DNA of 24,533 nt from a virus (lineage: Duplodnaviria; Caudoviricetes): the IMG/VR virus record IMGVR_UViG_3300012663_000598, positions 1 to 24,533 of that record; one strand, given 5' to 3'. Position numbers and translations under genes: made by a program. Under the pieces are notes generated by a model. It saw only the letters and a list, made by a program, of their open reading frames with translations, was not told the DNA's origin and did no database searches. Shown here piece after piece: positions 1 through 22,754 of this stretch (its first letter is position 1; each line of letters begins with the position of its first letter).

Positions 1-2433
1 CCCATCGACGATGCAGCTAAAGAAGAGCTTCTTGCGGCAGTAGACCCTAATAATTTTGCCGAAGCAGAAGCAGACCCGAATGACCCGCATGCTGGTATCC
101 CAGATAGCGTACGTCCCAAGGAGTACTTCCCTTTCCGTCGCTATGGTAAATACTGGCTGACGATCAAAGGCGATAACATTAAAACAGGCCGCGAGCGCCA
201 CCACTTTGAGACTGCTTTTGGGCGGAATGCCTTCCTGCGTAAGCGCGCCAAGGAATTAGGTGTAAACCCGCAAAACAGCGATATTTTTGAAAAGGGTGAT
301 ACGCTAGAGGACTTCCAGAATAACATGGTCGAGAGCAGCTTGATGCTCAGCAATATATTCTCGGTGATTGATAAGGCTGTAGTTTCCGGGAACTACGACA
401 CCACTAAGTACGCTAGCCCTGCCGAAGCAATGGAAGCCATGAAACAAGAGCTTAGGGATAAGCTCTACCAGACGTACCTCATGACGTTGCCGGAGCGTAG
501 CCTTCGTAGGCAGTTTATCCATGCCGAGCGCGTGACAGGTTTCAGCGGTGATGTGCTACGTAATTTTAAGTCTAGCTCTGCACAATATTCGGTACAAATT
601 CCGAAGCTGCAATATGGGTCTGACGTTAACAATGTAATCAGCGAAGGCTATGATGCCCTTGACGGGATGTCTGTGGATGAAAAATCCGCAGCAAAGACGT
701 ACGTCAATGAAATTGTGCGGCGTCTACGTGGAGCTATTAACCCTGACGAACCAAATGCATTCGTGGCGGGAATTAGCCGGTTCGCTTTCTACGAAGTCAT
801 GTCTAGTGTTGCGTCCGCTACGTCGCAGATGTTGTCTATCCCGATCTCGGTTATGCCTAAGCTCAATGCAGACTACGGGTATACCGCAGCTGCCGCTGCT
901 TTCATGCGTTACTCTTTCATTCCGTACAGCTTTGGTCTTCCTGAGCGCGATGCAGACGGCATGTTCTCGCAGGTTCTGCCTTCGATAGGGACATCCATGG
1001 CGGTTAAAAATAACCCTATTCGTGCCCGTGCGTTTAAGGAGTTCACCGACCGCGATTTGTTCGACTCTTCCTCGGCTAGCTCTCTGTTCCTTAACAACGA
1101 GATGGCGCATAAGTATTCTACCTACAACATTCCGGCAGAAGTGCTTGGTCTGGCGTTTAAGGCTATGCGTGTCCCCTTCACTATGTTTGATGTGGCTTCT
1201 CGTGAGATGAGCGCCATGATGTTCTTCGATCTCGACTACGGGAAAAACCGTGAGGCCGGTATGGACACGGAGGAAGCATTTAACACCGCTATTGAGAATA
1301 CCGTTACTGGCCTAAACGAAACCATTGGTAGCCATAACTTGTTCGAGCGTCCGCGTTACATGGTCGGGCAAATTCGTCAGTTGTTCTTCCTATTCCGTAT
1401 GTACGCTGTGAACCGCACCATATTCGGTTTGCGTATGGGTATGCAAGTTATGAGGGGTGAGAATGCCACTGGCCGTACTCGCGCTGCTGCCATACACGAA
1501 CTAGGCGGTAACTTGGCGATGGTGGCTGTCCTTGGCGGTATAGCAGGTGCACCGCTATTAGATGTGGTATGTGGGGCTATTGATATGATCCTGCCGTCGC
1601 TCATGGACGACGAGGAAGAAGAAGAGTTCCGGCGTCAGCATCCATACTCATTCAACAACTCTAAGCACCGGTTCCTATACGAGTGGCTACCAGAGAATTT
1701 CGGTGAGCCTACATTGCCCGGTCTAGATGGTAAGCAGCATGCGCTAGCGGACGTTCTGCGTAACGGCATACCGTCTGAGCTTATCGGCGCTAACTTCGCA
1801 TCTCGTATTAGCTGGAACGGCATGTGGATACGCGACAGCATTCCCGGAGAAAGCTGGGGCGAGTCAATCATAAACTGGCTTGAGATTAACCTGTCTCCCG
1901 GTGCGGCTATCAGTATCGAGTTCATCAAAGCGCTTGAGGATATATACAAGGGTGACGTTATGCGCGGCCTTGAAAAGATAGTCCCCGGCACATTCCGTGG
2001 TTCTATAACTGCTGAGCGGCTGTCAACTCAGGGGGCAGAAACCCGTAAGGGTACAAAAATGTTTACGAAGGACGAAATTACAGCTTTGCAGCTTAACTTC
2101 CAGCGTATGGGTTGGGCCCCGAATGAGGTGTCAGATTGGCAGCGTGAGCGCATGGGTAACCTTGCTATGATTAACGTTGTTACTGGCGAACGTGGCGACC
2201 TTATGGCTAACCTAAACAAAGCTAAGTCTGACCCCGAGGGTTCCGACCAGACAGTTGCTGAAGTCGAAGCCGATATCAAAGAGTTCAACAGGCTGCATCC
2301 TATCCCAGAACTGCAGATTGAAGAGAAGGACATAATCCAGTCTCGTAAGCGTTATCTGCAAGGCGAACTGGATAGCTATCGTGGTATGCAGCTTTCCAAA
2401 GAACAGGCAGCTATCCTGCTACGGAATAAATAA
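1..2433 (+). CDS. C-terminal part of a large polyvalent / virion-delivered (ejection-type) protein with PLxRFG-like motif; 5'-truncated by the window edge
   Basis: Frame 1 is open from base 1 (PIDDAAKEELL...EYFPFRRYGKYWL...) into the 325..2433 ORF. YFPFRRYGKYW resembles the PLxRFG signature. The remainder looks helical, with a hydrophobic segment (LAMVAVLGGIAGAPLL) typical of large phage internal proteins. Confidence 0.65.
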   Translation, partial: PIDDAAKEELLAAVDPNNFAEAEADPNDPHAGIPDSVRPKEYFPFRRYGKYWLTIKGDNIKTGRERHHFETAFGRNAFLRKRAKELGVNPQNSDIFEKGDTLEDFQNNMVESSLMLSNIFSVIDKAVVSGNYDTTKYASPAEAMEAMKQELRDKLYQTYLMTLPERSLRRQFIHAERVTGFSGDVLRNFKSSSAQYSVQIPKLQYGSDVNNVISEGYDALDGMSVDEKSAAKTYVNEIVRRLRGAINPDEPNAFVAGISRFAFYEVMSSVASATSQMLSIPISVMPKLNADYGYTAAAAAFMRYSFIPYSFGLPERDADGMFSQVLPSIGTSMAVKNNPIRARAFKEFTDRDLFDSSSASSLFLNNEMAHKYSTYNIPAEVLGLAFKAMRVPFTMFDVASREMSAMMFFDLDYGKNREAGMDTEEAFNTAIENTVTGLNETIGSHNLFERPRYMVGQIRQLFFLFRMYAVNRTIFGLRMGMQVMRGENATGRTRAAAIHELGGNLAMVAVLGGIAGAPLLDVVCGAIDMILPSLMDDEEEEEFRRQHPYSFNNSKHRFLYEWLPENFGEPTLPGLDGKQHALADVLRNGIPSELIGANFASRISWNGMWIRDSIPGESWGESIINWLEINLSPGAAISIEFIKALEDIYKGDVMRGLEKIVPGTFRGSITAERLSTQGAETRKGTKMFTKDEITALQLNFQRMGWAPNEVSDWQRERMGNLAMINVVTGERGDLMANLNKAKSDPEGSDQTVAEVEADIKEFNRLHPIPELQIEEKDIIQSRKRYLQGELDSYRGMQLSKEQAAILLRNK

Positions 2434-2460
2434 AAACCCCCCGCCGGTTAGAGCGGGGGG
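2432..2460 (-). terminator. Rho-independent terminator for the minus-strand replication operon, at the convergence point
   Basis: 8-bp stem CCCCCCGC (2437-2444) / GCGGGGGG (2453-2460), followed on the minus strand by TTTTTATTT. Confidence 0.85.
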
Positions 2461-2495
2461 CTAAGTGTGCCTAACGGAAGGAGCAAACTTCCGGT
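2432..2495 (-). ncRNA. Putative ~60-nt small RNA: anti-RBS hairpin (loop UUUGCUC) plus terminator
   Basis: Minus strand reads CGGAAG-UUUGCUC-CUUCCG and then the terminator. AGUUUGCUCCUU is complementary to the AAGGAGCAAACU RBS motif of the phage genes. A candidate promoter lies at 2500-2527. Confidence 0.45.
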
Positions 2496-2499
2496 GGTG

Positions 2500-2527
2500 C
2501 TTATATCATAGTGACCAAATACGTAAA
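2500..2527 (-). promoter_or_regulatory. Candidate sigma70-type promoter for the putative sRNA
   Basis: Minus strand TTTACG-N16-TATAAG with a TGn extension (TGA TATAAG), pointing into the hairpin. Confidence 0.35.
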
Positions 2528-2700
2528 CCCCTAATACCGTCTTCAATCACCGCTTTTATCAACACCTTGAGCTTCAAGCGCTTGGTAACCACTAGGACTT
2601 GTGTCTTGGCGCGTCTGGGGTCTAGGCATGGGAAGAATATAGAGGTCCCCCGCTTGAACTTTTTCCAGTTAACCTCGTAGCTAACTCCCTCCAGTTTCAT
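2506..2700 (-). CDS. Small basic hypothetical protein (64 aa)
   Basis: ATG start overlaps the primase 3' end, with GGAG upstream. Last gene of the operon. Confidence 0.75.
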   Translation of the reverse strand: MKLEGVSYEVNWKKFKRGTSIFFPCLDPRRAKTQVLVVTKRLKLKVLIKAVIEDGIRGLRIWSL

Positions 2701-5536
2701 CCCTAATCTCCACAGGCAATAAGCCTTCTACGTCCATAAAACCATTAACCGACGTATCGAAGAATAGCGCTTGTACGCCGAGGGTGTTAATCCTCATGCC
2801 CTTCGACATCCGCTTAGTATCGCTCCTGAGGTACACGCCGTCGTTCTTCAGCCTACGCAGGGTTTCCTTGTAGTTAATCTGGAACTGGACGCAGTACTCC
2901 TTGAACTTTTTAGCCGCGAAGAACAGCATCTTTGTATCAGGTTCGTAGCGAATGATGAGTTCGCCCTTAGGCTCCATCTTCGGCTTAACCTCCATGTTAG
3001 AGCGGCTGTCTACTTGGTCATCTACGACGAGCGTGTTCTGGATGTGGCGGTTCACGAAGTCACCGATAACTTGGCTTGTGTCCGTCGCTGGTGGCTCAAT
3101 CTCTTGCCTCAGTGTGATAATCATGTTGCATGCCCACTGGTACACATCGTTCATGTTCCAGTCGATTAGGCCCAGCATCTTGGCGATAAAACCCGCAGTG
3201 ATGTTAGCGGCAACGCCAGCTGACCAGAAACGTTCGCGCTGCGTTAGACGTAGTTCCAAGTCAAGCCGAGACTGGATGTTCATACATGCTTCGAGAACCT
3301 CCTCCATATTATCTAACACATACGCCATGAAGATCGGTCCCGCGTGGCCGTAGTTATCCATCAGCTGCTGGTCAAACATCTGCTTGCCTTCTTCAGTGCT
3401 AATGGCATCCGTCTGGCTAATGCGGTATTCAATTAGACGCATCATCTCCCCGTCAGGGCTATCCTTGCGGATAGACAGCTTTTCATAGAACGATGCGTTT
3501 GACGTACATATTGAGATAGTCTGCCACGTAGTCTCATTGATGCGCAGTTCGTTACCCCCTGCGGTCATACGTTCTTTACCCTTACCTTGGGACATGCCGT
3601 AAACCAGCTCGGAGAAATCATCAGCGCTCATGTTGGTGATTTCGTCCACACAATATGGCAAGTTGCACATGATAGCCAACCACTGCATCTTTGCATTTAG
3701 TGTGTCTGACTTCTTGGCAATAAGCTCAGTGGGGTGCCCGTAGGCACTCATAATCATACGAGCGATAGTCGTCTTACCCGTACCGGACTCTGGGCTTACG
3801 AGGTTGATAGCAGCACCTGACTGCTTAAGAAACTTCAAGAGCGGAGCGCCAAAGGCACTAAGCGCGGCAAAGGCATGGCCTTCTAAGCCGGGACGCCCGT
3901 ACAGCGACCACACTTCTTTCCATTTATCCAAGGAACCCACCGGCCCCATATACCGTGCTAGCGGCGCTGTGACTGCTGAAGGCGGGCTATAGAGCATACC
4001 CTCCCGAGTAACTTCTTGGTCACCGATGACAAAGCGGCTGTTGTTGTCTGCCCATCCAAATTGATTACGCATAATTTCTAACTTTCCTGTGTTCTGCGTA
4101 GCGTTCACCGACAGCATCACGTAATCCATGAACATGTCGAACTTCTTAGGGTGAACAGCTACGCTGTATGTTGATATAGCTTTGCGGAGTAGGTCTTTCG
4201 AGGACACCTCGTTAAGAGGCACCGCAAAATCTTCTACCCCGTCGAGTGGTAGGTGGCGGCGGAAGACTAGGACTTCCCCCATTTTCCTGTCCTTCATACG
4301 TTTAACGATATATATATCGTTATGATATACTAGGTCAGGTTGCACTTCGTCGTTGTCACCCTTCGGTGGCTTACGCCATATGCCCCCGCCTTCCCCACGG
4401 AAGAACGGGAACGGGTACTCTGGTATATAGAATGTTTCTGACTTAGGTCCTGTGGGTGTATTTACGACCTCTTCAACTCTGTTGCTCTTGGCTTCGTTTA
4501 TCTTACGCCCAAGATACTTAGGGCCGAGGATTTCCCCCTTCCACTTACATCCTTGGCATAAGGCTGGGTTCTTCCCCTCAAACTTAGCGCAGCTTGTAGC
4601 CCCCTTGATGGTGGCTACTTTGTTTTCCAGCGTAGCCGGATCGTATTCTGGGTGCCCTTCGGACATCATATGCACCGCTTCGGGTGCATCTTCGCACATG
4701 GCAGCGACCGAGATAGCGTGGAACCAGTCGTAATAGTCTATGGTATCACGGTTCTTATATGCGTGGAGTAGCTGTGCGCACCCTTCACCCTTTTCACTGC
4801 GGCGCATAATCTTACCGAAGTTGAACTGGACGCTTTTACTCATGGCCTTACCGAGTTCGGTAGGCTCCCACTTGGGCTGCGCTGCTAGGTGCTTCACACC
4901 TAACGTCTGTATAATCCAGTCAAAATTAACGGGCTTCCCAATAACCATTACCTCAACAGGTTTTGGAGGGTTGTCTTTGAAGTTGAATGTGCCCGGTATG
5001 CGCAGTATGCGCGCCGCTTCGAACACGGCTGGGTCCACGTAAAAGTTGTGGGTGTAGCACAAGTCACGGAGGCGGAGGGCGACAGGCTCCCACTCTTCGC
5101 GGGTTACATCTCGGTCAAGCGCCCAGTATGCGTGTATACCGCGCCCTGAGTTAACAAGGGTAGGCTTAGGTAACCCTGTGAGTTCACAGAAGTCCCGTAG
5201 CGCGGCAAGACCTGTCTCTTGGTCTATGTAACCATCAGGACGGCCAGTTTTTTCGCTGACCTCGGCTTTGCTTTCACCGCAGTCGATGTCTAGCCATAGG
5301 GCACGGAGCGCCTGTACGTTGTCCTTGGTACGCCCTGCGTCTGTCTTATATTTAGCAACACCGAAGAAAACATTACGCTCTTGAGAGAGGTACAGAGCGG
5401 CTACCCTATCTGCTTCCTCACGCGTCTGAACTAGCGTCTGTCTTACATCGTCTTTGCCTTTGTTACCGAAAATCGCAAACCACCCTTCAGATGGCTGTAC
5501 TGTCGATATGAGGTCAAACTCTTCCATTGGGCACAC
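2681..5536 (-). CDS. Primase-helicase: AEP/RepB-like primase, PriCT-like domain, DUF927 and P-loop helicase
   Basis: AEP motifs LWLDID, VNSGRGIHAYW and RILRIPGTFN; Cys cluster (C..C); QFGW DUF927-like segment; Walker A SPESGTGKTT and Walker B YCVDE. The start may be the ATG at 5527. Confidence 0.88.
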   Translation of the reverse strand: MCPMEEFDLISTVQPSEGWFAIFGNKGKDDVRQTLVQTREEADRVAALYLSQERNVFFGVAKYKTDAGRTKDNVQALRALWLDIDCGESKAEVSEKTGRPDGYIDQETGLAALRDFCELTGLPKPTLVNSGRGIHAYWALDRDVTREEWEPVALRLRDLCYTHNFYVDPAVFEAARILRIPGTFNFKDNPPKPVEVMVIGKPVNFDWIIQTLGVKHLAAQPKWEPTELGKAMSKSVQFNFGKIMRRSEKGEGCAQLLHAYKNRDTIDYYDWFHAISVAAMCEDAPEAVHMMSEGHPEYDPATLENKVATIKGATSCAKFEGKNPALCQGCKWKGEILGPKYLGRKINEAKSNRVEEVVNTPTGPKSETFYIPEYPFPFFRGEGGGIWRKPPKGDNDEVQPDLVYHNDIYIVKRMKDRKMGEVLVFRRHLPLDGVEDFAVPLNEVSSKDLLRKAISTYSVAVHPKKFDMFMDYVMLSVNATQNTGKLEIMRNQFGWADNNSRFVIGDQEVTREGMLYSPPSAVTAPLARYMGPVGSLDKWKEVWSLYGRPGLEGHAFAALSAFGAPLLKFLKQSGAAINLVSPESGTGKTTIARMIMSAYGHPTELIAKKSDTLNAKMQWLAIMCNLPYCVDEITNMSADDFSELVYGMSQGKGKERMTAGGNELRINETTWQTISICTSNASFYEKLSIRKDSPDGEMMRLIEYRISQTDAISTEEGKQMFDQQLMDNYGHAGPIFMAYVLDNMEEVLEACMNIQSRLDLELRLTQRERFWSAGVAANITAGFIAKMLGLIDWNMNDVYQWACNMIITLRQEIEPPATDTSQVIGDFVNRHIQNTLVVDDQVDSRSNMEVKPKMEPKGELIIRYEPDTKMLFFAAKKFKEYCVQFQINYKETLRRLKNDGVYLRSDTKRMSKGMRINTLGVQALFFDTSVNGFMDVEGLLPVEIRDETGGS

Positions 5537-5581
5537 TCGTCACTGCAGGTTAACCTGCTTGTTGTTTGCGGGGGGTGAAAC

Positions 5582-5815
5582 TTAAGCAGGGAAGTTGGTG
5601 ATGTATTTACGGATAAGTCCGATAAACTCGCCCTGCGGGGCGTTAACCCCGCAGAACCAATTATACACAGACTGCCGTGTGGCACCTAGGTCACGTGCGG
5701 CTTTGCTCACAGAGACTCCATGCTTAATGCACGTCCTCCCTAGCTGCACACCTAGATGCCCATCGTCAGCTTCGCTATTAGCTTCAACGGTTTTGATGCT
5801 ATAGCCGTAACCCAT
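5582..5815 (-). CDS. Cro/XRE-like helix-turn-helix protein
   Basis: VSVSKAARDLGATRQSVYNWFCG is a typical HTH pattern; TAATG coupling to the upstream gene. Confidence 0.8.
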   Translation of the reverse strand: MGYGYSIKTVEANSEADDGHLGVQLGRTCIKHGVSVSKAARDLGATRQSVYNWFCGVNAPQGEFIGLIRKYITNFPA

Positions 5816-6735
5816 TAGTCATCCTCATCACTACCCCAGTTGCTAATAACAGCAGCTAGGTTGGCTTTAGGTTCTGAGTTAGCGTCACTCTTAACAGCAG
5901 GGCGCTTCGTAGGCTCCGCTATAACGGCAGGAGCTTCTTCGTCCGGCTCATCCGACCGAGCAATTTGAGGTGCAGGTGCTGCTGTCTGCTTCTTAACACC
6001 ATCCTGCGCAGCTACGGTCAGTTCGCACATACGTTTTGTACCTGCGTCAGCTTGTGCAAGTTTTACGAGTTCCCGCTCTGCGTCACTGATGCCGCGCACA
6101 GGAGTAAAGAGAAGCTCCATGCTATCGGCGTTAAGGTCGTAGCTGATGTTGGTCACTACCGCATCTGGCGACTCGTGGTTAGCGAGCAGGTAGCGCACAT
6201 AGCTTTCAAACGGATGCACATTACCGACGCCCTTACCGAACAATGACTTGGCAGGAACATTGAACTGATACACTTCCCCTGTGGAGTCGGTAGGTAGGAT
6301 GACCGCAACACGGCGCTGATAGCGGCATGCGCGACCCTTACCGTTACTGCCTGAGCCGACCACATTCTTAGGGCAACTTACGCAGTTTACTCCCTGCTTG
6401 TTACCCGCAGCGGCTTCCGGAATGTCACCGTTGTTCGACCAGCAATCTGGTAGAGTTGGCTTAGCGTTAGGATCGTAAGCACCGGCATAAAACACACGGC
6501 TAACCTTAGGTAGCGCATGAACGATGATGACATCAATGTCGCCACGAACTGCGTCGCCAATCTGCTCACCGTTTACAAGGCGCTTAAACGTCCCGTTGGT
6601 GTTGGTCTGGATACGGCGGCTAGTACCACCGCTTGTAGCCCCTGCCAAAGTTTTGGCGAGTTCACTGAGTTGACCACGGTTAGCCGAAGTTGAGATTGCA
6701 CCGGGCTGCTTAAAGATAGAAATTTCATTGGACAT
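5815..6735 (-). CDS. Putative single-stranded DNA-binding protein (Zn-binding phage type)
   Basis: PDCWS...CVSCP...GKGRAC Cys motif; low-complexity Pro/Ala linker; acidic C-terminal tail (WGSDEDD); position in the replication module. Confidence 0.6.
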   Translation of the reverse strand: MSNEISIFKQPGAISTSANRGQLSELAKTLAGATSGGTSRRIQTNTNGTFKRLVNGEQIGDAVRGDIDVIIVHALPKVSRVFYAGAYDPNAKPTLPDCWSNNGDIPEAAAGNKQGVNCVSCPKNVVGSGSNGKGRACRYQRRVAVILPTDSTGEVYQFNVPAKSLFGKGVGNVHPFESYVRYLLANHESPDAVVTNISYDLNADSMELLFTPVRGISDAERELVKLAQADAGTKRMCELTVAAQDGVKKQTAAPAPQIARSDEPDEEAPAVIAEPTKRPAVKSDANSEPKANLAAVISNWGSDEDD

Positions 6736-6748: not shown

Positions 6749-7153
6749 TTATTTAGATGTAGGTTTACGGACTTGTACTACGTACTTGTTATCGGCTTGT
6801 AGGCCAACAGGAAGAACCTCTGGGTTGTCGGCCAAGAATTGCTTCAAGTTACCATTATGGATGCGTTGTTCTAACAGGAAGGGTGCATCGTGGTCCCTAA
6901 TGAACTGATACATCGCATCCCAGTCGCTCGTCCAGTACCGAGTGTTAACCCGACGAGAGACCGTTCCTGCGTTGGTGCGTAAGCTATCTACATCTAGCGT
7001 ATTGCAGATGTCGAGTAAGCCTCCGGCAACAAGGTCTAATTGTTCTTTGAGGGAGGTAAGTTCATCCTTATACTCCTCTTCTTTGTCACGGATAGCATCT
7101 CGGATTTTCCGGTATGCGATCACCATTTCTTCTACGGACTGCTCTTTATCCAT
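6749..7153 (-). CDS. Conserved phage protein with an N-terminal coiled coil (replication module), 134 aa
   Basis: ATG at 7153 is preceded by the GAAGGAGCAAA RBS, so the start is reassigned from 7183. Coiled coil followed by DWDAMYQFI...LLEQRI. Confidence 0.7.
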   Translation of the reverse strand: MDKEQSVEEMVIAYRKIRDAIRDKEEEYKDELTSLKEQLDLVAGGLLDICNTLDVDSLRTNAGTVSRRVNTRYWTSDWDAMYQFIRDHDAPFLLEQRIHNGNLKQFLADNPEVLPVGLQADNKYVVQVRKPTSK

Positions 7154-7195
7154 TATTTGCTCCTTCGTGTTTGGGGTAGGCATACCCCGAGCCCC

Positions 7196-9749: not shown

Positions 9750-10043
9750 TTATTCCTCCACGGGGAGTCGGGATAAAAGGGAAACTATGTCTTCGAAACC
9801 CTCGTCCGAAATATCAGCGATGCGGGTTAAGCCATCACGTAACCCTTCAAGCTGGCGCTGTATAGCCCAACCTACAAAGTCGGCAGATGCTGCCTGCATG
9901 AACCCCGCCATGAACGTAGCCGCTGCCTGTCGATCATTTCCTATCTCTGTATCGAACAGGTCTTCATAAGCCTTCTTTGCGTAGACGGCATACTCGCGGG
10001 CAGTCATGTGTGCTTGTTGCATCGCGTCACTAGGAGCAGTCAT
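9750..10043 (-). CDS. Hypothetical protein (97 aa)
   Basis: Tightly packed ORF with TAATG coupling to the upstream gene. Confidence 0.7.
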   Translation of the reverse strand: MTAPSDAMQQAHMTAREYAVYAKKAYEDLFDTEIGNDRQAAATFMAGFMQAASADFVGWAIQRQLEGLRDGLTRIADISDEGFEDIVSLLSRLPVEE

Positions 10044-10576
10044 TAGCGCACCTTCCCTTGGAGACGGTCAGCCACTAACGTAGCATATCCCGCTATATCA
10101 ATCCAGCTATCTATATGGTTTGAGTCACCATTTAGGATACGCCCTATCTTAGTAAAGATCATATCCAGTGCTTCGGCTTGGTCGGCATCGAAGGTCTTGT
10201 TGTTCTGCCCAGCAAACTGATGAGCCACTGCCTTAAGTCGCTGCGTAACCTGCGACAGCCCAAGGAAGCTACCGTACTTGGAGCCACGTTCGTCAAGGAT
10301 TACGTCTACGTCAGTATCAGCCTCTCCCTCTGCCTTCCAGTCTTCCTCTGCTTCGGCCCTCCAGCCTTCGATCATCTCTTTGACCTTGTTGGTGTGCTCT
10401 GTGGCAGTCTGCCGCACCGTTTCCACCGTATCTTTCGCTGCAGCCTCCAAATCCTTCTTCAGCTTCCATGCGTAATTGTAGCTTACCGCCATGCGTTTGG
10501 TAATCTCCTTAGGGGAGTAACCCTGCTTCAGTAGCTTTATAACGTTATCTGCTATGACTTTCTTTCTCATACTCAT
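10043..10576 (-). CDS. N-terminal HTH-like region fused to a DUF6378-like domain
   Basis: Start reassigned to 10576 (AGGAGCAAA RBS at 10581-10589). C-terminal ERGSKYG...KIGRILNGD...DSWIDIAGYATL is DUF6378-like; N-terminal LLKQGYSPKEITKRMAVSYNYAW is HTH-like. Confidence 0.7.
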   Translation of the reverse strand: MSMRKKVIADNVIKLLKQGYSPKEITKRMAVSYNYAWKLKKDLEAAAKDTVETVRQTATEHTNKVKEMIEGWRAEAEEDWKAEGEADTDVDVILDERGSKYGSFLGLSQVTQRLKAVAHQFAGQNNKTFDADQAEALDMIFTKIGRILNGDSNHIDSWIDIAGYATLVADRLQGKVR

Positions 10577-10589
10577 TTCATTTGCTCCT

Positions 10590-10778
10590 TTATGGTAGGC
10601 GATGTGCCGCTTTAGTGAAATCTTCGTAGTGCTTGCGGCATAGATAAAGCATAGTATCTTCAACGGTGAACTGGTTAAAATCCAGAAGCCGCTCGTGTTC
10701 ATGAGTGCATTCAGCAACCCCACACTCTACTGGTACGGTTATCATCATAGGGGTTAGCACTTCTATTTCTAACGTCAT
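10590..10778 (-). CDS. Small hypothetical protein, possible Zn ligands (C...C, C..H)
   Basis: ATG with an AGGAGCAAAC RBS; fills the gap between its neighbours. Confidence 0.7.
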   Translation of the reverse strand: MTLEIEVLTPMMITVPVECGVAECTHEHERLLDFNQFTVEDTMLYLCRKHYEDFTKAAHRLP

Positions 10779-10788
10779 TGTTTGCTCC

Positions 10789-11547
10789 TTATTTAAGATT
10801 GCCGCCGCTCTTCAAGATGTCACCGCCAAACACATACGTCCCTACATGGTATAACTGGATGAACGGGTGGGCGTGTATTTTGCCACCGTGGGTACGCCAC
10901 AGTTCGCAAAAATGGTAATCCTCTGACAACAGCGCCCCGCTCTCGTCGATAGACGTAGCGAAAAACTCATGGGTCAAAGGCTTGGCGTATTCGCCTGTCT
11001 CTGGGTCTTTGAACGACGATACGCGATAGGTTGGAACGTGGGGTATAAGATGCTCGAACACCCCCCGCTTGATGAGCATAAAGCCTGTGCCACCATGGCG
11101 TACTTCAATGCAGCCTTCCTCGTCTGTGTGTACGTCACTATTGCCTATCATATTAAACACAAATGCTCCAGCATGGTCCGCAAGGTCCGTCTTACCTTCA
11201 AGAGCAGCACGGTTGACGCTATCCCAGTTCACTTCCTTCTTAGGGTAGATACCACATGCAATGTCCTTGTCAGCCAGCATGAGGTGCGCGATACCCTCAC
11301 CATCAAAGCCAATGTCAGCGTCGATGAACATCAGGTAGTCATGGTCACTCTCAAGGAATACCCGTGCTAAATCATTACGGGCACGGGTGATGAGGCTCTC
11401 GTTCATAATCTGACACCACGCTACGTTGACCCCGACTTCGCGCATCTTAGCCATAGTCATAAGCAAACCTTGCACATAGTGTCCTGTGCACATGCCCCCG
11501 TACATGGGGGTGGCAATCATAAGGCTCGGTTTCTTTTCTTCAGTCAT
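10789..11547 (-). CDS. GT-A fold glycosyltransferase-like protein
   Basis: IATPMYGG, ESLITRARN, LMFIDADI (DxD), GTGFMLIKR and SEDYHFC motifs. Confidence 0.8.
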   Translation of the reverse strand: MTEEKKPSLMIATPMYGGMCTGHYVQGLLMTMAKMREVGVNVAWCQIMNESLITRARNDLARVFLESDHDYLMFIDADIGFDGEGIAHLMLADKDIACGIYPKKEVNWDSVNRAALEGKTDLADHAGAFVFNMIGNSDVHTDEEGCIEVRHGGTGFMLIKRGVFEHLIPHVPTYRVSSFKDPETGEYAKPLTHEFFATSIDESGALLSEDYHFCELWRTHGGKIHAHPFIQLYHVGTYVFGGDILKSGGNLK

Positions 11548-11729
11548 TTCTTGCTTCCTTTGAAACGACCACGCTCGTCGCGGTCTGTTAGTTTATGTAG
11601 TTCCTTGTTCAGTCGCTCGTTCTCACGTTTAATACCTTCGGTGGAGGCAAAGGTGCGTATCAACGCCACCAGATATCCAAGAACGAACAGTCCGATAAAA
11701 ATAAAAGTCAATAGCCAATCCATAATCAT
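11544..11729 (-). CDS. Small membrane-anchored coiled-coil protein
   Basis: N-terminal hydrophobic stretch (LLTFIFIGLFVLGYLVALI) and a charged tail; ATGA overlaps at both ends. Confidence 0.7.
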   Translation of the reverse strand: MIMDWLLTFIFIGLFVLGYLVALIRTFASTEGIKRENERLNKELHKLTDRDERGRFKGSKK

Positions 11730-12319
11730 TCTCCTTTCTTACGTACAATTAACTGATAGCCGATGTGCACAATCTCCACTTCCTCTGCGAACAGGTTAGT
11801 GAAGGCGTCGATGGCTGCTTTAGGGCGATGCAGGATATCCCGTGCGTTCGGTGTCCATAGGTAATCGTCAAACACCATCAGACCTTCGACCTTGAGCAAT
11901 GGCCAAGCCATGCAAGCATCAGTCAGCACATCCTTAGCAATGTGGCTCCCGTCGATATAGATAAAGCCATAGGTGTATTCCTTCTCAATAAACCGTGCCA
12001 GCGCTCTCGTAGATGTGTCCTTGATTTGGATAACACTTCGGTCGGGATACTTTTCTTCGAGCACTTTTGCGTTGTGTAGGAACCGCGCTTCGACTTCGCT
12101 CATGTTCTCTGCGCCATGTTCTTCGCCGCCTTCCCACGTATCCACGCACTGGATATTACCCTCGTCCTCCATCATATTCTCGACAATCCATGCGGCACTG
12201 CGGCCCTCGAAAGAACCTATCTCAAGAAAATTAAGGCGGTCTGGTAGCATAGGGATAAGCTGCTCCCATACTTGCGGTGCCCAGTTGAACCAGTCCTTGG
12301 TGAATTTGTAGCTAGTCAT
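11726..12319 (-). CDS. Class I SAM-dependent methyltransferase (Methyltransf_24-like)
   Basis: LEIGSFEGRS motif I, CVDTW, FIYIDGSH, GLMVFDDY. ATG at 12319 with a GAAGGAGCAAAC RBS. Confidence 0.88.
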   Translation of the reverse strand: MTSYKFTKDWFNWAPQVWEQLIPMLPDRLNFLEIGSFEGRSAAWIVENMMEDEGNIQCVDTWEGGEEHGAENMSEVEARFLHNAKVLEEKYPDRSVIQIKDTSTRALARFIEKEYTYGFIYIDGSHIAKDVLTDACMAWPLLKVEGLMVFDDYLWTPNARDILHRPKAAIDAFTNLFAEEVEIVHIGYQLIVRKKGE

Positions 12320-12333
12320 TGGTTTGCTCCTTC

Positions 12334-12618
12334 TCACGGTTGTAAATGTTCGGGCATAAACTCGAAGTACATTCTAATGCTGCTACCGGAAGACCGCCCG
12401 ACAGCGTTGGCACAGTCTTGCCAGCTTTCACCCTGCCTACGCATGATTGCCGCCCTGCGTAACTTAACCCCAGTCATCTGCTTATATGAATGAGTATTGT
12501 ACATTGAGCGCCTACGGTTTGTCGGCCTGTCTAACCATGCTTGATACTCTTCGGCAGATGGCACAGCGCTGGGCGTCATGTGCATGTCGCGGTATCCTTT
12601 TATACCTTTAACCTGCAT
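12334..12618 (-). CDS. Hypothetical protein with a possible C-terminal HTH
   Basis: AGGAGCAAG RBS; MRRQGESWQDCANAVGRS is an HTH-like pattern. Confidence 0.6.
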   Translation of the reverse strand: MQVKGIKGYRDMHMTPSAVPSAEEYQAWLDRPTNRRRSMYNTHSYKQMTGVKLRRAAIMRRQGESWQDCANAVGRSSGSSIRMYFEFMPEHLQP

Positions 12619-12630
12619 GGCTTGCTCCTT

Positions 12631-13278
12631 CTAAGGTTTTTCGCCGTGCTCGAACCGAGCACCCAGCGCAGCGTAAATAGCAGGTACTACCGCAGCCGAT
12701 TCTAACGACTGTGCCCACCCAACAGCTACCCCGAAGTTATCAATCCCCCCAGAAGAAGAGCCAAGATTGTCCCAAGTGTAGCACTCCCTGCTATCGTGCA
12801 CTAAGTTCAAACCGTCTGGGCGTACCTCGCAGTAAAAACCATGGACGCCTTTATTATGAAATATAACGGGCACCCAAATCTCTGCATTGTCGCGTACTCG
12901 TGGCACATCCCCAAGAAGTATAATTGGTTTACGTGTAGTTAAAGCTGCGGCGCTCGCACATCCGCTATCCCAGCTACTGTCCAGAAATCCCGGTGGCCCC
13001 CCGCCAAAATCTAAACGGTCCAACCAAATACCGTCCTTAAAGAAGTCAGGGTCGCCCTTCACCTCGACATAGAAATGCTGGCCTTTTGGCGTAGTAATTT
13101 CAAAATCAGGGAGCCACGGCAGCATAGCTTTTTCATGCCAACCCAACACATAACCCTCTTTCTCGTACTGCCAGTCCCAGCCAAGCGCATCGAAGAAGAC
13201 TGCCCACCGAGCTTCAAGCCGACTGCGGAAACGACAACCTCTATAGCTTGTTTCAATGGCCTTAATATTACTCCCCAT
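12631..13278 (-). CDS. Restriction-endonuclease-fold PD-(D/E)XK nuclease
   Basis: FRSRLEARWAVFFD, then WLPDF and YVEVKG catalytic pattern. Confidence 0.75.
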   Translation of the reverse strand: MGSNIKAIETSYRGCRFRSRLEARWAVFFDALGWDWQYEKEGYVLGWHEKAMLPWLPDFEITTPKGQHFYVEVKGDPDFFKDGIWLDRLDFGGGPPGFLDSSWDSGCASAAALTTRKPIILLGDVPRVRDNAEIWVPVIFHNKGVHGFYCEVRPDGLNLVHDSRECYTWDNLGSSSGGIDNFGVAVGWAQSLESAAVVPAIYAALGARFEHGEKP

Positions 13279-15941: not shown

Positions 15942-15979
15942 TCGTTCGCTCCTTCTATGATAGTAACCACCTAACTCTG

Positions 15980-16276
15980 TTAGGTATCACCATCCGTTAG
16001 TAGTGTAGCCATAACCCTGCGGCTGAAGCTGTCCCCTTGGATGCTCATATACTTATCATGGAGTATAAGGATTTCGCGGTCTGTCAGGAACCCAAGAGAC
16101 TCAAAGTGCATCACTGGGTCGTCGGCTGACGACCTTGCCATAAAGTCCATCCGTGTCTTGATGGACCCCGTTACCCACTTCCATTTCTCACGGACGTGCT
16201 TGTCTGGGTTGTATGCGTTAAATTCTTCGGGGTGGCTATCCATCCGTTGCAGCAAAAGCTCTACACCTTGGTTCAC
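15980..16276 (-). CDS. Hypothetical protein (98 aa)
   Basis: GTGA overlap with the VRR-NUC stop; GGGG RBS. Confidence 0.7.
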   Translation of the reverse strand: MNQGVELLLQRMDSHPEEFNAYNPDKHVREKWKWVTGSIKTRMDFMARSSADDPVMHFESLGFLTDREILILHDKYMSIQGDSFSRRVMATLLTDGDT

Positions 16277-16578
16277 CGTGTTTCCCCTTTTAGTTTTTTG
16301 ATGAGGTCAGGGAGCATGTCGTAGTTCGTTTCGTCTACTACTACAGCTACGCCGTTAGACCTACGTATCGCTTCAATCTCGCGCACCTGTAGGGCTGTAG
16401 TCTTACCGCCGTTTGCCTTGCACTCAACAGCAAGGAACCAGCCATTCACACAGGCTACAATGTCGGGGACGCCACTACGTCCGAAGCCGTGGGTTGCGGG
16501 TGAAAAGAAATATATCTCGTGTGCAGTGAAGATGGACTTTACCTTATCCTTCACTTTTTTCTCGGGCGTTGCTGCCAT
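16273..16578 (-). CDS. VRR-NUC domain nuclease (Holliday-junction resolvase-like)
   Basis: PEKKVK, SGVPDIV, AVECKA and TALQ motifs. Confidence 0.88.
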   Translation of the reverse strand: MAATPEKKVKDKVKSIFTAHEIYFFSPATHGFGRSGVPDIVACVNGWFLAVECKANGGKTTALQVREIEAIRRSNGVAVVVDETNYDMLPDLIKKLKGETR

Positions 16579-16602
16579 GGTTTGCTCCTCGTTTGGCTCA
16601 CC

Positions 16603-16631
16603 ACCCTACACCCTCAATTTACATTGTCAAA
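16603..16631 (-). promoter_or_regulatory. Sigma70-type promoter for the replication block; -35 lies in a near-palindrome TTGACAATGTAAA
   Basis: Minus strand TTGACA-N16-TAGGGT, directly after the terminator at 16641-16668. Confidence 0.6.
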
Positions 16632-16640
16632 CGATAAAAC

Positions 16641-16668
16641 AAAAAAAGACCGCCCCGAAAGGCGGTCT
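16641..16668 (-). terminator. Rho-independent terminator ending the early AAA/vWA operon
   Basis: Stem AGACCGCC/GGCGGTCT with a TTCG-containing loop on the minus strand, followed by a T7 run. Confidence 0.9.
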
Positions 16669-16700
16669 AGTCTAACATAGTTAGGAGCAACTATATGTTA
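16641..16700 (-). ncRNA. Putative 3'UTR-derived small RNA: anti-RBS hairpin (loop GCUCCU) plus terminator
   Basis: Stem TAACATAGTT / AACTAT(AT)GTTA at 16673-16700, with plus-strand loop AGGAGC. Same architecture as 2432-2495. Confidence 0.4.
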
Positions 16701-16871
16701 TTTGTGTGTATCGGCGTAGGCCGTAAGGATGTCACGCATCTTCCCTGTGAAGTTAGGGAACCTTTTATAAAAGTCCAAGGCTTCGCTCGATAGACGTATA
16801 GTGATGTGGCCCATGGCCGGACGCTTGCCCAGCCCACGCTGTCCGCGTTTGCGTTTTAGTTCCTCAATCAT
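16698..16871 (-). CDS. BrnA-antitoxin-like ribbon-helix-helix protein (57 aa), below the ORF-track cutoff
   Basis: MIEELKRKRGQRGLGKRPAMGHITIRLSSEALDFYKRFPNFTGKMRDILTAYADTHK: RG..K linker, ITIRL beta strand, then two helices. ATGA overlap with the upstream gene. Confidence 0.7.
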   Translation of the reverse strand: MIEELKRKRGQRGLGKRPAMGHITIRLSSEALDFYKRFPNFTGKMRDILTAYADTHK

Positions 16872-17737
16872 ACAAGTTCCTTATCAATAACAAAGAAGGT
16901 GCTCTCGTTAAGTCGCACACCTACGTTGGGTATAATCCGACTGCCCTCACTTAGTTTGAGGAAGCCGAGGTTGCGACGGATGTTGTCTGTCAGTTGTTCG
17001 CTGGACTTGACCTCTGTCTCTCGTGCGTCTCCGGAGCCACGCACCATGACGTAATCGCTGCCTCGCGTAAGTATAGTGAACCCTTCTTTGTTGCGGTAAG
17101 CCCGCTCCGTAGCTTCCGCTTCTTTCTTACTGGCAAGTCGTTCGGGTAGGTCGTCTGGCACTGGTGCGCCCCTTGCCTTTAACTCAGGCGCTATCGTATC
17201 CCAGTTGGCCATTATATATCCCGTGATGAACGCGCCCATGCGTCTAAAGCCGCTGTCAAAATCTGCATTAGCAGTCCTAGTATTCTCGCTCAGCTTAACC
17301 TCTACCTGTTGCTCGACCTCTACAATGGTCTCGGCTAATGTCTTAGCGTGAAAGGCTTTGAGTATATTCTTAACCGCTAGGTCGAGCTTACTAGTTTTAT
17401 TCCATATACCGCGCTGGCGCTTACTGGTTAGCCTTGGGTTGTCGTAGCGGTAGTATGTAACTTGCCCCGTATCAGTGCGATAGCCTGACTCAACGGAGAT
17501 TTCGCCTACCGACTGGCCGTTCTCGTAAACATCAAAGTGATGTGCCGACACCCCATCGCCCGTTGTAGCCTCGTTAGCAGACTTTAGCGTCCATTGTGGG
17601 CGGCTCTTACATAGCTCCTCCACTAGGGGTAGCACCTTATCATGAACCACAAATCGCGTATTGGGGTTTACGAAGGCAGGGTTGCGGTTGATGAACACGT
17701 TCGAGAAACCCTCACATGGGTATAGTTGCTTAGTCAT
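16868..17737 (-). CDS. Hypothetical protein (289 aa)
   Basis: Long ORF; start reassigned to the ATG at 17737 with AGGAG upstream. Confidence 0.8.
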   Translation of the reverse strand: MTKQLYPCEGFSNVFINRNPAFVNPNTRFVVHDKVLPLVEELCKSRPQWTLKSANEATTGDGVSAHHFDVYENGQSVGEISVESGYRTDTGQVTYYRYDNPRLTSKRQRGIWNKTSKLDLAVKNILKAFHAKTLAETIVEVEQQVEVKLSENTRTANADFDSGFRRMGAFITGYIMANWDTIAPELKARGAPVPDDLPERLASKKEAEATERAYRNKEGFTILTRGSDYVMVRGSGDARETEVKSSEQLTDNIRRNLGFLKLSEGSRIIPNVGVRLNESTFFVIDKELV

Positions 17738-17760
17738 TGTCCTTACTCCTTTCCTATGCC

Positions 17761-18603: not shown

Positions 18604-18664
18604 TAGTTTGCTCCTATTGTGTTATATGTAACTTAGTTAGGCGTCCGGTTTGCTATCCGGTATT

Positions 18665-18910: not shown

Positions 18911-18921
18911 TAGTTTGCTCC

Positions 18922-20130
18922 TTATCCTTTGATGTGAACGGTTTTGCCAACCGGCGCTACGATACGACCTGATGTGTAGCGATGCTCGGAGATTACCCAC
19001 ATGATAGGCGCATCCCACTCGTTGCCCCAGTCACCGACATACCCGTCAGTTAGCTGGATGATGCACTCTGGCTTGATGTTTTGCTCCTTGAGGTAGCGCA
19101 TCATACAGGTTGGGTCAGTGCCGCCACCGCCTACTGGCTTAGTAGAGCTAACAAGGTTAGACATGGTTGCCATGTCATAGACCTCATGCCCCGCTACATG
19201 GCCATCCCAATAGATGAGGTCTATCTTGTCGGGATGCACCTCCTCGACGATAGCCTTGACCTCGGACAGAAACACATTGAGTTCGTCCGTGCCGATAGAG
19301 CCGCTTGTGTCTACACCCACAGCGATATGCCCGACCTTCTCACCTATTAGCGTAGGAAGATACACGTCTTGACTTAGCATGCGCCTGTTGACTCTGCGCC
19401 ATGATGACGCATCCTTGGCATTGCAGGTAGCGGACACAAACTCACGCAGTGCTTCGCGCCAATCTATCTGTGGCTGGAGCATGTCGCCTAGCTCGCGGTT
19501 GACGTTTAGTCCGCCTTTGCCCGTAGCTTTCATAGCTGCTATCTGGCCTTGACGTAGGGCTTGGTCTACCTCGCGCTCTAGTTCCTTGCGCTCGTCGGCA
19601 GTCATTTCCTTGGCCCCGTCCCAGTCATGCTCGTCGAACCCTTGGTCGCCTTGACCACCATTAGGGTTATCCTTCTTCTCCTGCTTGAGTATGTCGAAGA
19701 TTTGCTTGGTGTTCATGCCTTTGTATTTGACGTCATAGCACCCCATGCGTGAACCATCCTCGAAGCGTGGGAAGGCTACCACTTGCTCGTTCGGGTCCAT
19801 ATCCATAATCATAAGGTTGATTACATGGTCCATTGCGATGTTAGCTAGGCGAGCGTCCTCTGCTCGTAGCTTCTGCCATGTTGTCATGTGGCGTAAGCCC
19901 TTGTGCATGTTCTCGTGTAGCACGACGAACCCTAGCTGCTTCTCATCTAACTTTGTTATAAGTCCCAAGCCATACATCTCGTCGCGGCCATTGGTGCATG
20001 CTGTCGGCACGTCCTCGACTACGCTAGTCTTACCGACCATCATGATGCCAGACCACAATGCGAACATGGGGTTGCGCATGAGGTTAATCTTGACTTTCTT
20101 GAGCTTGCGCTCTGCTTTCTGCATATCCAT
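18922..20130 (-). CDS. DUF2201-type protein: N-terminal HExxH metallopeptidase-like domain and C-terminal vWA domain
   Basis: PTACTNG; LHENMH (HExxH); N.A.D..IN; MIDAS DTSGS; GGGGTD; LTDGY. Confidence 0.88.
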   Translation of the reverse strand: MDMQKAERKLKKVKINLMRNPMFALWSGIMMVGKTSVVEDVPTACTNGRDEMYGLGLITKLDEKQLGFVVLHENMHKGLRHMTTWQKLRAEDARLANIAMDHVINLMIMDMDPNEQVVAFPRFEDGSRMGCYDVKYKGMNTKQIFDILKQEKKDNPNGGQGDQGFDEHDWDGAKEMTADERKELEREVDQALRQGQIAAMKATGKGGLNVNRELGDMLQPQIDWREALREFVSATCNAKDASSWRRVNRRMLSQDVYLPTLIGEKVGHIAVGVDTSGSIGTDELNVFLSEVKAIVEEVHPDKIDLIYWDGHVAGHEVYDMATMSNLVSSTKPVGGGGTDPTCMMRYLKEQNIKPECIIQLTDGYVGDWGNEWDAPIMWVISEHRYTSGRIVAPVGKTVHIKG

Positions 20131-20151
20131 TAGTTTGCTCCTATGCTGGTA

Positions 20152-21219: not shown

Positions 21220-21292
21220 TGTATTACTCCTTCGTTGTAACTTTGTTAGGTCTTCTTACTCTAGTTGGCTGTTTACCCAGTTTTTTCTTTTT

Positions 21293-22753: not shown

Positions 22754-22754
22754 G

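What the first reader, a model, noticed from the sequence alone, without database searches (positions are those of the whole stretch)
2432..2527. Candidate phage small RNA exposing an anti-RBS loop complementary to the start motif of many of the phage's own genes
Seen: between the last replication gene and its terminator, the minus strand reads CGGAAG-UUUGCUC-CUUCCG (6-bp stem, 2475-2493). AGUUUGCUCCUU(C) pairs perfectly over 12 nt with the RBS of 18665-18910 (AAGGAGCAAACU) and of the methyltransferase (GAAGGAGCAAAC). It pairs over 11 nt with the vWA and DUF3150-like genes (AGGAGCAAACU), and over at least 9 nt with four more genes. A candidate promoter (TTTACG-N16-TATAAG, 2500-2527) would give a stand-alone RNA of about 60 nt made of a seed hairpin plus terminator. 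Inference: a trans-acting antisense sRNA that shuts off a regulon of early/middle genes marked by a shared extended Shine-Dalgarno sequence, i.e. an RNA-based temporal switch. I do not know of a described family with this arrangement.
Basis: partly seen in the sequence, partly recalled or inferred. Interest (0 to 1): 0.85.

Follow-up and report, generated by a model that had tools for sequence, protein, structure and literature searches.

The report
Phage RNA mirrors its early-gene starts
An uncultured phage and its relatives keep a predicted ~65-base RNA gene whose sequence mirrors a private tag on the ribosome-binding sites of the phage's early genes and the start of its primase-helicase, and RNA and targets change together between lineages, so one RNA likely turns down a whole class of the phage's own genes.

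Summary
Confirmed and extended. The minus strand at 2493-2475 folds into CGGAAG-UUUGCUC-CUUCCG before a terminator; 9 of 32 same-strand gene starts pair with it over 10-12 nt. The unit is conserved across an uncultured ~62-kb phage family: 97 of 108 coding-anchored relatives carry an anti-Shine-Dalgarno stretch there, the stem has compensatory changes, and the -35 codon is constrained in 23 of 24 lineages. Early-gene tags track the loop; late genes do not, though the main base changes only five times on the tree. Best reading: a multi-seed antisense sRNA that likely represses the phage's own early and replication genes. No RNA, repression or timing has been observed; host unknown. No Rfam family reaches its threshold. 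Cluster K mycobacteriophages' unexplained reversed 'start-associated sequence' also sits in a hairpin loop. This scan noted the same kind of element on other genomes.

The parts
2522..2527 (-). Predicted -35 element TTTACG, inside the last codons (G-L-R) of the 64-aa ORF
   Evidence: Leu codon here is TTA/TTG in 23 of 24 lineages against 6.7 expected; a control Leu of the same ORF is TTR in 8 of 22
2500..2505 (-). Predicted -10 element TATAAG, directly after the ORF's stop codon
   Evidence: TA lies 12-13 nt before the hairpin in 54 of 61 short-type elements; TANNNT (mostly TATACT) at a fixed place in 39 of 39 long-type elements; TANNNT in 80 of 106 coding-anchored relatives
2428..2495 (-). 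Predicted small RNA, about 65-68 nt (5' end inferred at 2495-2492 from promoter spacing)
   Evidence: Fold z=-3.4; conserved position and layout in relatives; not observed as RNA
2475..2493 (-). Seed hairpin CGGAAG-UUUGCUC-CUUCCG; seed 1 (AGUUUGCUCCUUC, 2489-2477) is complementary to the early-gene tag (G)AAGGAGCAAAC(U)
   Evidence: Loop predicted unpaired; three outer stem pairs kept in 67, 62, 63 of 68 with five compensated stem types
2463..2480 (-). Seed 2 (CUUCCGUUAGGCACACUU), complementary to the primase-helicase start over 17 of 18 nt (2 G-U, 1 mismatch)
   Evidence: Best predicted target, -22.8 kcal/mol; rank 1 of 23 lineages both ways
2428..2462 (-). Rho-independent terminator, one-directional (T-run only on the minus strand)
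2506..2700 (-). Conserved 64-aa ORF whose 3' end holds the promoter; function unknown
   Evidence: 57-row alignment; confident model, pLDDT 91.5; no Pfam/PHROG hit, no PDB fold at E<=0.001; DUF7303 only a weak lead
5521..5538 (-). Predicted target: start of the primase-helicase (GAGUGUGCCCA-AUGGAAG, AUG at 5527); no Shine-Dalgarno sequence
   Evidence: DUF927 / primase-helicase
18912..18923 (-). Predicted target: tag AAGGAGCAAACT (12 nt) before the 81-aa gene 18665-18910
12322..12333 (-). Predicted target: tag GAAGGAGCAAAC (12 nt) before the methyltransferase 11726-12319
20132..20142 (-). Predicted target: tag AGGAGCAAACT (11 nt) before the DUF2201 (vWA-like) gene 18922-20130
18605..18615 (-). 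Predicted target: tag AGGAGCAAACT (11 nt) before the 280-aa gene 17761-18603
7156..7166 (-). Predicted target: tag GAAGGAGCAAA (11 nt) before the 134-aa gene 6749-7153, the most consistently tagged family (32 of 41 orthologues match their own element over >=8 nt)
10780..10790 (-). Predicted target: tag AAGGAGCAAAC (11 nt) before the 62-aa gene 10590-10778
10581..10590 (-). Predicted target: tag AAGGAGCAAA (10 nt) before the 177-aa DUF6378/HTH gene 10043-10576
12622..12631 (-). Predicted target: tag GAAGGAGCAA (10 nt) before the 94-aa gene 12334-12618
16580..16589 (-). Predicted target: tag AGGAGCAAAC (10 nt) before the 101-aa VRR-NUC/Hjc-like nuclease 16273-16578

Best explanation
The gap after the 64-aa ORF holds a conserved, predicted ~65-nt RNA gene with two stretches complementary to this phage's own gene starts, and the RNA likely represses their translation by base pairing. 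Shown by sequence and comparison: promoter-like constraint, a covarying seed hairpin, a one-way terminator, a tag on early but not late gene starts that changes with the loop, and a second seed matching the primase-helicase start. Inferred: the RNA is made from its own sigma-70-type promoter (possibly also cut from the operon's 3' end); the exposed UUUGCUC loop nucleates on GAGCAAA, the weak stem opens, and pairing covers the Shine-Dalgarno sequence of about 9-12 early/middle genes; the 3' half covers the primase-helicase start codon. Most inferred: the RNA builds up as genome copies rise, acting as delayed negative feedback that hands ribosomes to untagged late mRNAs and caps replication-protein output.
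For: Chance excluded in the window. Conservation without selecting on the hairpin: 39 of 58 primase-selected loci have the exact hairpin; of 108 coding-anchored elements 49 exact, 19 same core in another stem, 29 another anti-SD stretch. Compensated stems GAA/TTC x5, GAG/CTC x2, GTA/TAC, GAC/GTC, AGA/TCT. Base after GGAGC at early starts (A/C/G/T): loop predicts A 173/1/7/6, T 15/3/2/29, G 4/2/7/2 (37 genomes); second set of 33 genomes A 41/3/1/1, T 16/3/3/23; 42 of 45 genomes with a clear mode agree. Early 137 of 663 against late 17 of 734 starts match their own element over >=8 nt. Lineage permutation in the T/G clade (13 lineages): 24 against 10.7 matches of >=10 nt (p=1e-4), 11 against 2.1 with the shared hairpin masked (p=5e-5); late starts show nothing (13 against 14.5). 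Tree-independent swap test: 17 of 25 pairs favour own RNA, 5 against, 3 ties, Wilcoxon p=0.0025. Seed 2 against primase start: -15.0 against -11.7 kcal/mol over 23 lineages, p=5e-5, including a matched one-base indel (GGCACACU/AGUGUGCC against GGCAUCACUC/GAGUGAUGCC) and a 17-nt perfect match in L053. Promoter. No tyrosine integrase or resolvase in 18 of 18 near-complete relatives.
Against: No experiment and no transcript data. The key base changes only 3 times on the first tree and 5 on the second; independent pairs on that base alone are 1 and 3 (p=0.25). The CUGCUC lineage (G003, G005) predicts GGAGCAG but keeps GGAGCAA (14 AA against 2 AG of 20 sites), and 3 of 45 genomes disagree outright. 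In T-loop genomes a third of tagged starts still read A. Within the A clade the masked test is significant only at >=10 nt, on two matches. Primase pairing is strong in only about 7 of 23 lineages. 9 of 108 relatives lack any anti-SD stretch. The pair just outside the stem is C-A in 36 of 100 elements, which would pair only on the opposite strand. A sigma-70 promoter gives no built-in delay. Gene starts came from my own simple caller, with visible errors in some families.
Confidence: 0.72

Rival explanations
1. Same pairing, but no stand-alone gene or timer: the element is the 3' end of the replication operon mRNA, acting after processing (or in cis) as negative feedback on its own operon, as OppZ and CarZ do.
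For: It lies between the operon's last stop codon and its terminator; its best predicted target, the primase-helicase start, is in the same operon, as is the most consistently tagged gene family (134-aa). OppZ/CarZ precedent (PMC7398697, abstract).
Against: Non-coding constraint on -35 and -10 positions with fixed spacing to the hairpin points to a dedicated promoter; many tagged genes lie beyond another terminator at 16668-16647, in a separate transcript.
Confidence: 0.12
2. A host-directed anti-Shine-Dalgarno sRNA (MmgR/SisA- or 'toxic sRNA'-like) that silences host mRNAs; the match to phage genes reflects a ribosome-binding style copied from the host.
For: Weak Rfam likeness to suhB/MmgR (24 bits), anti-hemB and betaproteobacterial toxic sRNA. 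Host is unknown, so host targets could not be checked.
Against: Late genes use the same ribosomes but lack the tag (perfect GGAGCAAAC: 40 early, 0 late); lineage-specific seeds match phage starts, including a primase start with no Shine-Dalgarno sequence. Host targets in addition are not excluded.
Confidence: 0.06
3. The tag is a protein-binding site (translational repressor or activator), and the functional copy is the plus-strand hairpin, a decoy made by read-through of late transcription.
For: The plus strand folds the same hairpin slightly better (-10.6 against -7.3 kcal/mol); the terminator has no plus-strand T-run, so read-through from the convergent late gene is possible; C-A flanks pair only on that strand.
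Against: Promoter and terminator both point along the minus strand; a protein would have to change specificity for several unrelated sequences in step with lineage-specific seeds; 29 of 42 single deviations in tags are G-U-compatible with the minus-strand RNA, though these are also transitions.
Confidence: 0.05
4. The RNA pairs with tagged starts but does not repress: it activates or stabilises them, or is itself titrated by the tagged mRNAs.
For: Comparative data show selection for pairing, not its sign. Several early leaders have upstream hairpins that pairing could remodel.
Against: Pairing covers the Shine-Dalgarno sequence or the start codon itself, which by established sRNA mechanism blocks 30S binding (SisA example, PMC12559287 passages).
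Confidence: 0.05

Closest known systems
alphaR8 sRNAs MmgR / SisA-D (Rfam RF00519 suhB; PMC12559287, passages read)
   Same: Short RNA with an anti-Shine-Dalgarno seed and Rho-independent terminator; SisA represses many mRNAs by pairing upstream of start codons.
   Different: Chromosomal, host-targeting; seed is a single-stranded UUUCCUCCCU after a weak hairpin. Here the seed is UUUGCUCCUU in a hairpin loop, the gene is on a phage, and predicted targets are the phage's own tagged genes. Score 24 bits against a threshold of 41.
c4 antisense RNA of phages P1 and P7 (review PMC12197685, section 9 read)
   Same: Phage-encoded trans-acting antisense RNA with loop-exposed seeds that blocks translation near a ribosome-binding site of the phage's own mRNA; seed and target differ in step between phages.
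   Different: c4 controls one antirepressor operon in temperate-phage immunity; this RNA is predicted to hit 9-12 scattered early genes plus the primase-helicase in phages without a detected integrase. No RF01695 match.
OppZ and CarZ, 3'-UTR autoregulatory sRNAs of Vibrio cholerae (PMC7398697, abstract read)
   Same: RNA from the 3' end of an operon that pairs with its own transcript to inhibit translation.
   Different: Those are cut out by RNase E and act on their own operon; this one has a constrained internal promoter and predicted targets in other transcripts.
Start-associated sequences (SAS) of Cluster K mycobacteriophages and Microbacterium cluster EF (PMC3203893, PMC7302621, PMC11373665; passages and one section read)
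   Same: An over-conserved extended Shine-Dalgarno tag on 11-19 non-structural genes, with a single reversed copy in four K1 genomes; function stated as unknown in 2011 and 2024. The reversed copy folds as a hairpin loop on the transcribed strand.
   Different: Unrelated sequence and phages; the reversed copy lies where late transcription begins, without an adjacent U-tailed terminator, and is lost in 2 of 7 aligned genomes. No antisense RNA was proposed for it in the passages read.
Betaproteobacterial toxic small RNA (RF02278) and anti-hemB (RF02837)
   Same: Short CUCC-bearing RNA ending in a terminator; weak covariance-model likeness (18.6 and 18.9 bits).
   Different: Far below thresholds (50, 49.5); chromosomal; function given as unknown in PMC4603805 (passages).

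Membership tests
alphaR8 / MmgR / suhB (RF00519) | Covariance-model score at or above 41 bits | tested here: not met
   24 bits, E=0.45 on the window; none of 20 relatives reaches any Rfam threshold
alphaR8 / MmgR / suhB (RF00519) | Single-stranded 10-mer UUUCCUCCCU after a weak hairpin | tested here: not met
   Core reads UUUGCUCCUU and sits in a hairpin loop and 3' stem (definition)
alphaR8 / MmgR / suhB (RF00519) | Rho-independent terminator at the 3' end | tested here: met
alphaR8 / MmgR / suhB (RF00519) | Usual linkage to an N-formylglutamate amidohydrolase gene | tested here: not met
   Flanks are a 64-aa phage ORF and a DarB-like large protein
c4 antisense RNA (RF01695) | Match to the c4 model | tested here: not met
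   No c4 hit up to E=10 in 2300-2700
c4 antisense RNA (RF01695) | Target is an antirepressor operon in a temperate immunity region | tested here: not met
   Predicted targets are scattered early genes and the primase-helicase; no antirepressor among 31 window proteins scanned; no integrase or resolvase in 18 relatives
Trans-acting base-pairing sRNA (general class) | Own promoter and terminator in a gap between genes | tested here: met
   By comparative constraint only
Trans-acting base-pairing sRNA (general class) | Conserved, accessible seed complementary to distant translation starts, covarying with them | tested here: met
Trans-acting base-pairing sRNA (general class) | RNA detected in cells | not testable with these tools
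   No transcript data available for this phage
Trans-acting base-pairing sRNA (general class) | Seed-dependent repression, rescued by compensatory mutation; Hfq dependence | not testable with these tools
   Needs reporters and a host
3'-UTR-derived autoregulatory sRNA (OppZ/CarZ type) | Located at the 3' end of an operon and complementary to that operon's mRNA | tested here: met
3'-UTR-derived autoregulatory sRNA (OppZ/CarZ type) | Released by RNase E cleavage rather than by its own promoter | tested here: inconclusive
   Promoter constraint argues against; 5' end not mapped

The most novel reading that the evidence does not exclude
Phages have repeatedly evolved an RNA-addressed regulon: early genes carry a private bar-code fused to the Shine-Dalgarno sequence, and one phage RNA with the mirror sequence in a loop switches the whole class off at the early-to-late transition, gaining extra seeds for chosen genes such as the primase-helicase. 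The same logic would explain the start-associated sequences of Cluster K mycobacteriophages, whose single reversed copy forms a hairpin loop where late transcription begins.
Probability: 0.4. Interest if true: 0.92.

Novelty: new variant of a known kind. Interest (0 to 1): 0.82.

Why it matters
Few small RNAs of lytic phages have a known function, and those reviewed act on host genes or on one phage operon (PMC12197685, first part, section 9 and passages read). A phage RNA that addresses a class of its own genes through a co-evolving ribosome-site tag would be a protein-free way to time or cap gene expression in infection, in a family estimated at about 1,700 stored viral contigs. It also gives a direct test of an open question: the role of Cluster K start-associated sequences, unexplained since 2011, can be probed in cultured phages on Mycobacterium smegmatis. 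Natural seed-tag pairs with different specificities would be ready-made orthogonal translation switches.

Tried and rejected
RNA evidence: no RNA holder was listed for window 1500-6000; this is no evidence either way, and no reads were laid. My recollection that PAK_P3 sRNA2 targets phage ribosome sites was wrong: its repeated match is to host tRNA loops (PMC4933390, passages). Rfam: only sub-threshold hits. Literature: ten searches listed no paper describing this arrangement; the library lacks most subscription journals. The viral structured-RNA catalogue PMC10690425 gave no hit for the seed in 6 supplementary files, but files 1, 2 and 4 were not searched, so the motif may be listed there. 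Host: genome-collection hits are metagenome bins of four unrelated groups (Caulobacteraceae, Actinomycetota, Sericytochromatia, a betaproteobacterium), so no host is assigned; the missing -7 T of the short-type promoters fits Alphaproteobacteria (PMC8407463, abstract) but is only a hint. Cultured distant relatives (Rhizobium phage RHph_TM3_14A, Pseudomonas phages Rollin and KPP25) show no dominant tag or equivalent element at the junction. Lysogenic-immunity reading: no integrase or resolvase in 18 of 18 near-complete relatives; a plasmid prophage is not excluded. The 64-aa ORF as an RNA chaperone: no fold match at E<=0.001; the wide structural search had not finished. Strand test from flanking pairs gave no support. 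Wobble test is confounded with transition bias. The first pattern scan selected on the hairpin, so its 111 of 131 in-context hits show location, not conservation. Rows dropped: G048 (no element called); genomes with under 17 early genes and under 9; G075 and G093, mis-parsed (both have UUAG loops and 9 of 10 T sites, counted under 'none') and left out.
Full report
Setting. The window is a 24.5-kb fragment of a phage. A minus-strand block runs from small early genes through a MoxR-type ATPase, a DUF2201 vWA-like protein, DNA polymerase, exonuclease, helicase and a primase-helicase to a 64-aa ORF ending at 2506; a large plus-strand gene ends at 2433. Complete relatives are 60-69 kb (one 84 kb); the nearest cultured phages are distant (primase 25-28%, polymerase 34-37%). 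The host is unknown.

Observation. The minus strand of the 72-nt gap reads TATAAG, seven bases, CGGAAG-UUUGCUC-CUUCCG (2493-2475), UUAGGCACACUU, then a terminator. Of 32 called minus-strand starts, 12 are complementary to the gap over at least 8 nt, 9 over 10, 6 over 11 and 2 over 12; shuffles of the gap average 0.29, 0.02, 0.005 and 0.0005, and no other 37-nt window of the contig matches more than 2 starts over 9 nt. The loop is predicted open.

Conservation. A scan for the hairpin found about 310 viral contigs, and 111 of 131 matches examined lay just after the primase or small ORF; that scan selects on the hairpin. Two samples do not. Of 58 distinct loci found through the primase, 39 have GGAAG-N1-4-GCTCCTTCC. 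Of 108 distinct elements found through the ORF's last codons, 49 are exact, 19 have the GCTCCT core in another setting, 29 have another anti-Shine-Dalgarno stretch, 9 have none and 2 have no terminator. Among 68 with the hairpin core, the three outer stem pairs hold in 67, 62 and 63, with compensated stems GAA/TTC (5), GAG/CTC (2), GTA/TAC, GAC/GTC and AGA/TCT. The next pair out is not kept (22 of 68), and its commonest form, C-A, would pair only on the other strand.

Promoter. In 54 of 61 short-type elements a TA lies 12-13 nt before the hairpin, without a conserved final T; all 39 long-type elements have a TANNNT hexamer, mostly TATACT, at a fixed distance from the ORF's G-L-R codons. The Leu codon under the -35 is TTA or TTG in 23 of 24 lineages against 6.7 expected from each genome's usage, while another conserved Leu of the same ORF is TTR in 8 of 22. 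This is comparative evidence for a promoter; no start site is mapped.

Seed 1 and the tag. In 37 genomes with the hairpin, the base after GGAGC at early starts follows the loop: A/C/G/T counts are 173/1/7/6 where the loop predicts A, 15/3/2/29 where it predicts T and 4/2/7/2 where it predicts G; late starts give 5/2/6/11, 5/3/1/7 and 0/2/0/2. A second set of 33 genomes, fetched afterwards, gave 41/3/1/1 and 16/3/3/23, with two T-loop genomes mis-parsed. Rarer loops find their own match: UUAGUUC with GAAAGGAACUAA, CUAGCUC with UAAGGAGCUAGC. Early starts match their own element over 8 nt in 137 of 663 cases, late starts in 17 of 734. Kinship limits this: the base changes 3 times on a 45-genome tree and 5 times on a 70-genome tree, giving 1 and 3 independent pairs. 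Two tests reach further. Permuting RNAs among 13 lineages of the T/G clade gives 24 matches of 10 nt against 10.7, and 11 against 2.1 when the shared hairpin is masked; late starts give 13 against 14.5. Swapping RNAs within 25 tree-disjoint pairs favours the own RNA in 17, the other in 5, with 3 ties (the script printed 18 and 7 by rounding; Wilcoxon p=0.0025). Against: the CUGCUC lineage keeps GGAGCAA tags, 3 of 45 genomes disagree, and in the A clade the masked test rests on two matches.

Seed 2. Co-folding the RNA with all 34 called starts ranks the primase-helicase first (-22.8 kcal/mol): GAGUGUGCCCA-AUGGAAG pairs with CUUCCGUUAGGCACACUU at 17 of 18 positions, across the AUG. This start has no Shine-Dalgarno sequence. 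A sister lineage has GGCAUCACUC against GAGUGAUGCC, one base longer on both sides; L053 has 17 perfect pairs; L034 and L084 have unrelated sequences that again pair best with their own primase start. Over 23 lineages the own pair averages -15.0 against -11.7 kcal/mol (p=5e-5), but the pairing is strong in only about 7. Long-type elements carry other extra seeds, matched for example at the ATPase start in G008, G017 and G006. The RNA therefore looks like a scaffold on which seeds are gained and lost.

Mechanism. Shown: layout, conservation, covariation, and selection for complementarity to early but not late starts. Inferred from established sRNA biology (SisA, PMC12559287 passages; c4, PMC12197685 section 9): loop-first pairing, stem opening and blocking of 30S binding. 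Most speculative: timing. No tyrosine integrase or resolvase is found in 18 near-complete relatives, so I favour a role in the lytic cycle over prophage immunity; a sigma-70 promoter has no built-in delay, so gradual build-up with genome copy number, or an unknown activator, is needed. DNA polymerase, the SNF2-type helicase and the 306-aa gene are untagged in this phage, so the shut-off would be selective.

Known systems. No Rfam family reaches threshold in the window or 20 relatives; the best is suhB/MmgR at 24 of 41 bits, and its defining 10-mer is absent. It works like SisA (many targets, anti-SD seed), like c4 (phage RNA on phage mRNA) and partly like OppZ/CarZ (3' end acting on its own operon), but belongs to none. 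Ten literature searches listed no description of this arrangement; three supplementary files of the viral RNA catalogue PMC10690425 were not searchable. Earlier notes of this scan report the same kind of element on other genomes; two look like this family. They are not independent support; the covariation was retested here, and one note reports a case where it failed.

Cluster K parallel. PMC3203893 (passages) describes 11-19 copies of a 13-nt extended ribosome site on non-structural genes, with one reversed copy in four K1 phages, and leaves the role open; PMC11373665 still calls it ill-defined. In Anaya 16 copies are forward and one is reversed. In Anaya and Adephagia the reversed copy is the 10-nt terminal loop of a long hairpin on the transcribed strand; in Adephagia it lies between genes 92 and 93, where late transcription appears to start. 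The hairpin is kept in 5 of 7 aligned genomes, with an altered loop in two of them, and is lost in Pixie and ShedlockHolmes. I did not test loop-tag covariation there. This is an analogy in unrelated phages, but it can be tested in culture.

Verdict. A real, conserved, multi-seed antisense RNA gene by comparative evidence; repression of the phage's own early and replication genes is the most likely function (0.72); expression and timing are untested. New variant of a known kind; interest 0.82.

Noticed in passing
window 15971-24464: Palindrome CTAAC-N3-GTTAG occurs 18 times (14 perfect, 4 with one mismatch; 0.7 expected), several inside genes and several just before tagged starts: an operator-like array across the early region.
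   Followed up: partly
window 16647-16697 (-): After the 57-aa gene, a hairpin with AGUUGCUCCU (10-nt anti-tag) overlaps one palindrome copy and precedes a terminator; kept in G001-G005 with loop GCUCCU or ACUCCU, absent in 14 other genomes examined. Could be a second anti-tag RNA or a by-product of the operator.
   Followed up: partly
window 24250-24300 and 24350-24392: Two imperfect direct repeats of about 45 nt, each holding a palindrome copy, in the long non-coding stretch at the contig end; one reads TAGGTGCTCCTA.
   Followed up: no
window 5545-5558: A short hairpin (GCAGGTTAACCTGC) sits 17 nt before the primase-helicase start, which lacks a Shine-Dalgarno sequence; many relatives have an unrelated hairpin at the same place.
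   Followed up: partly
window 2506-2700 (-): Conserved 64-aa ORF with invariant W, G, F-x-P and G-x-R-x-W; confident small alpha/beta model, no known fold match, weak DUF7303 lead.
   Followed up: partly
window 23845-23817 and 21321-21293 (-): Two near-identical strong early promoter candidates, TTGAC(A/T)-N17-TACATT with TG extension.
   Followed up: no
L319:1683-1695 and L302:34871-34883: Reversed start-associated sequence of mycobacteriophages Adephagia and Anaya forms the terminal loop of a long hairpin in the gap where late transcription begins.
   Followed up: partly
[not shown]
   Followed up: no
L162-L164, after the small ORF's stop: A lineage keeps the -10 and terminator but has a short hairpin with no anti-Shine-Dalgarno stretch; too little early region was held to see whether it has lost the tag.
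   Followed up: partly
L320:30240-33323: The Rhizobium phage RHph_TM3_14A gene annotated 'putative integrase' is the homologue of this primase-helicase.
   Followed up: no
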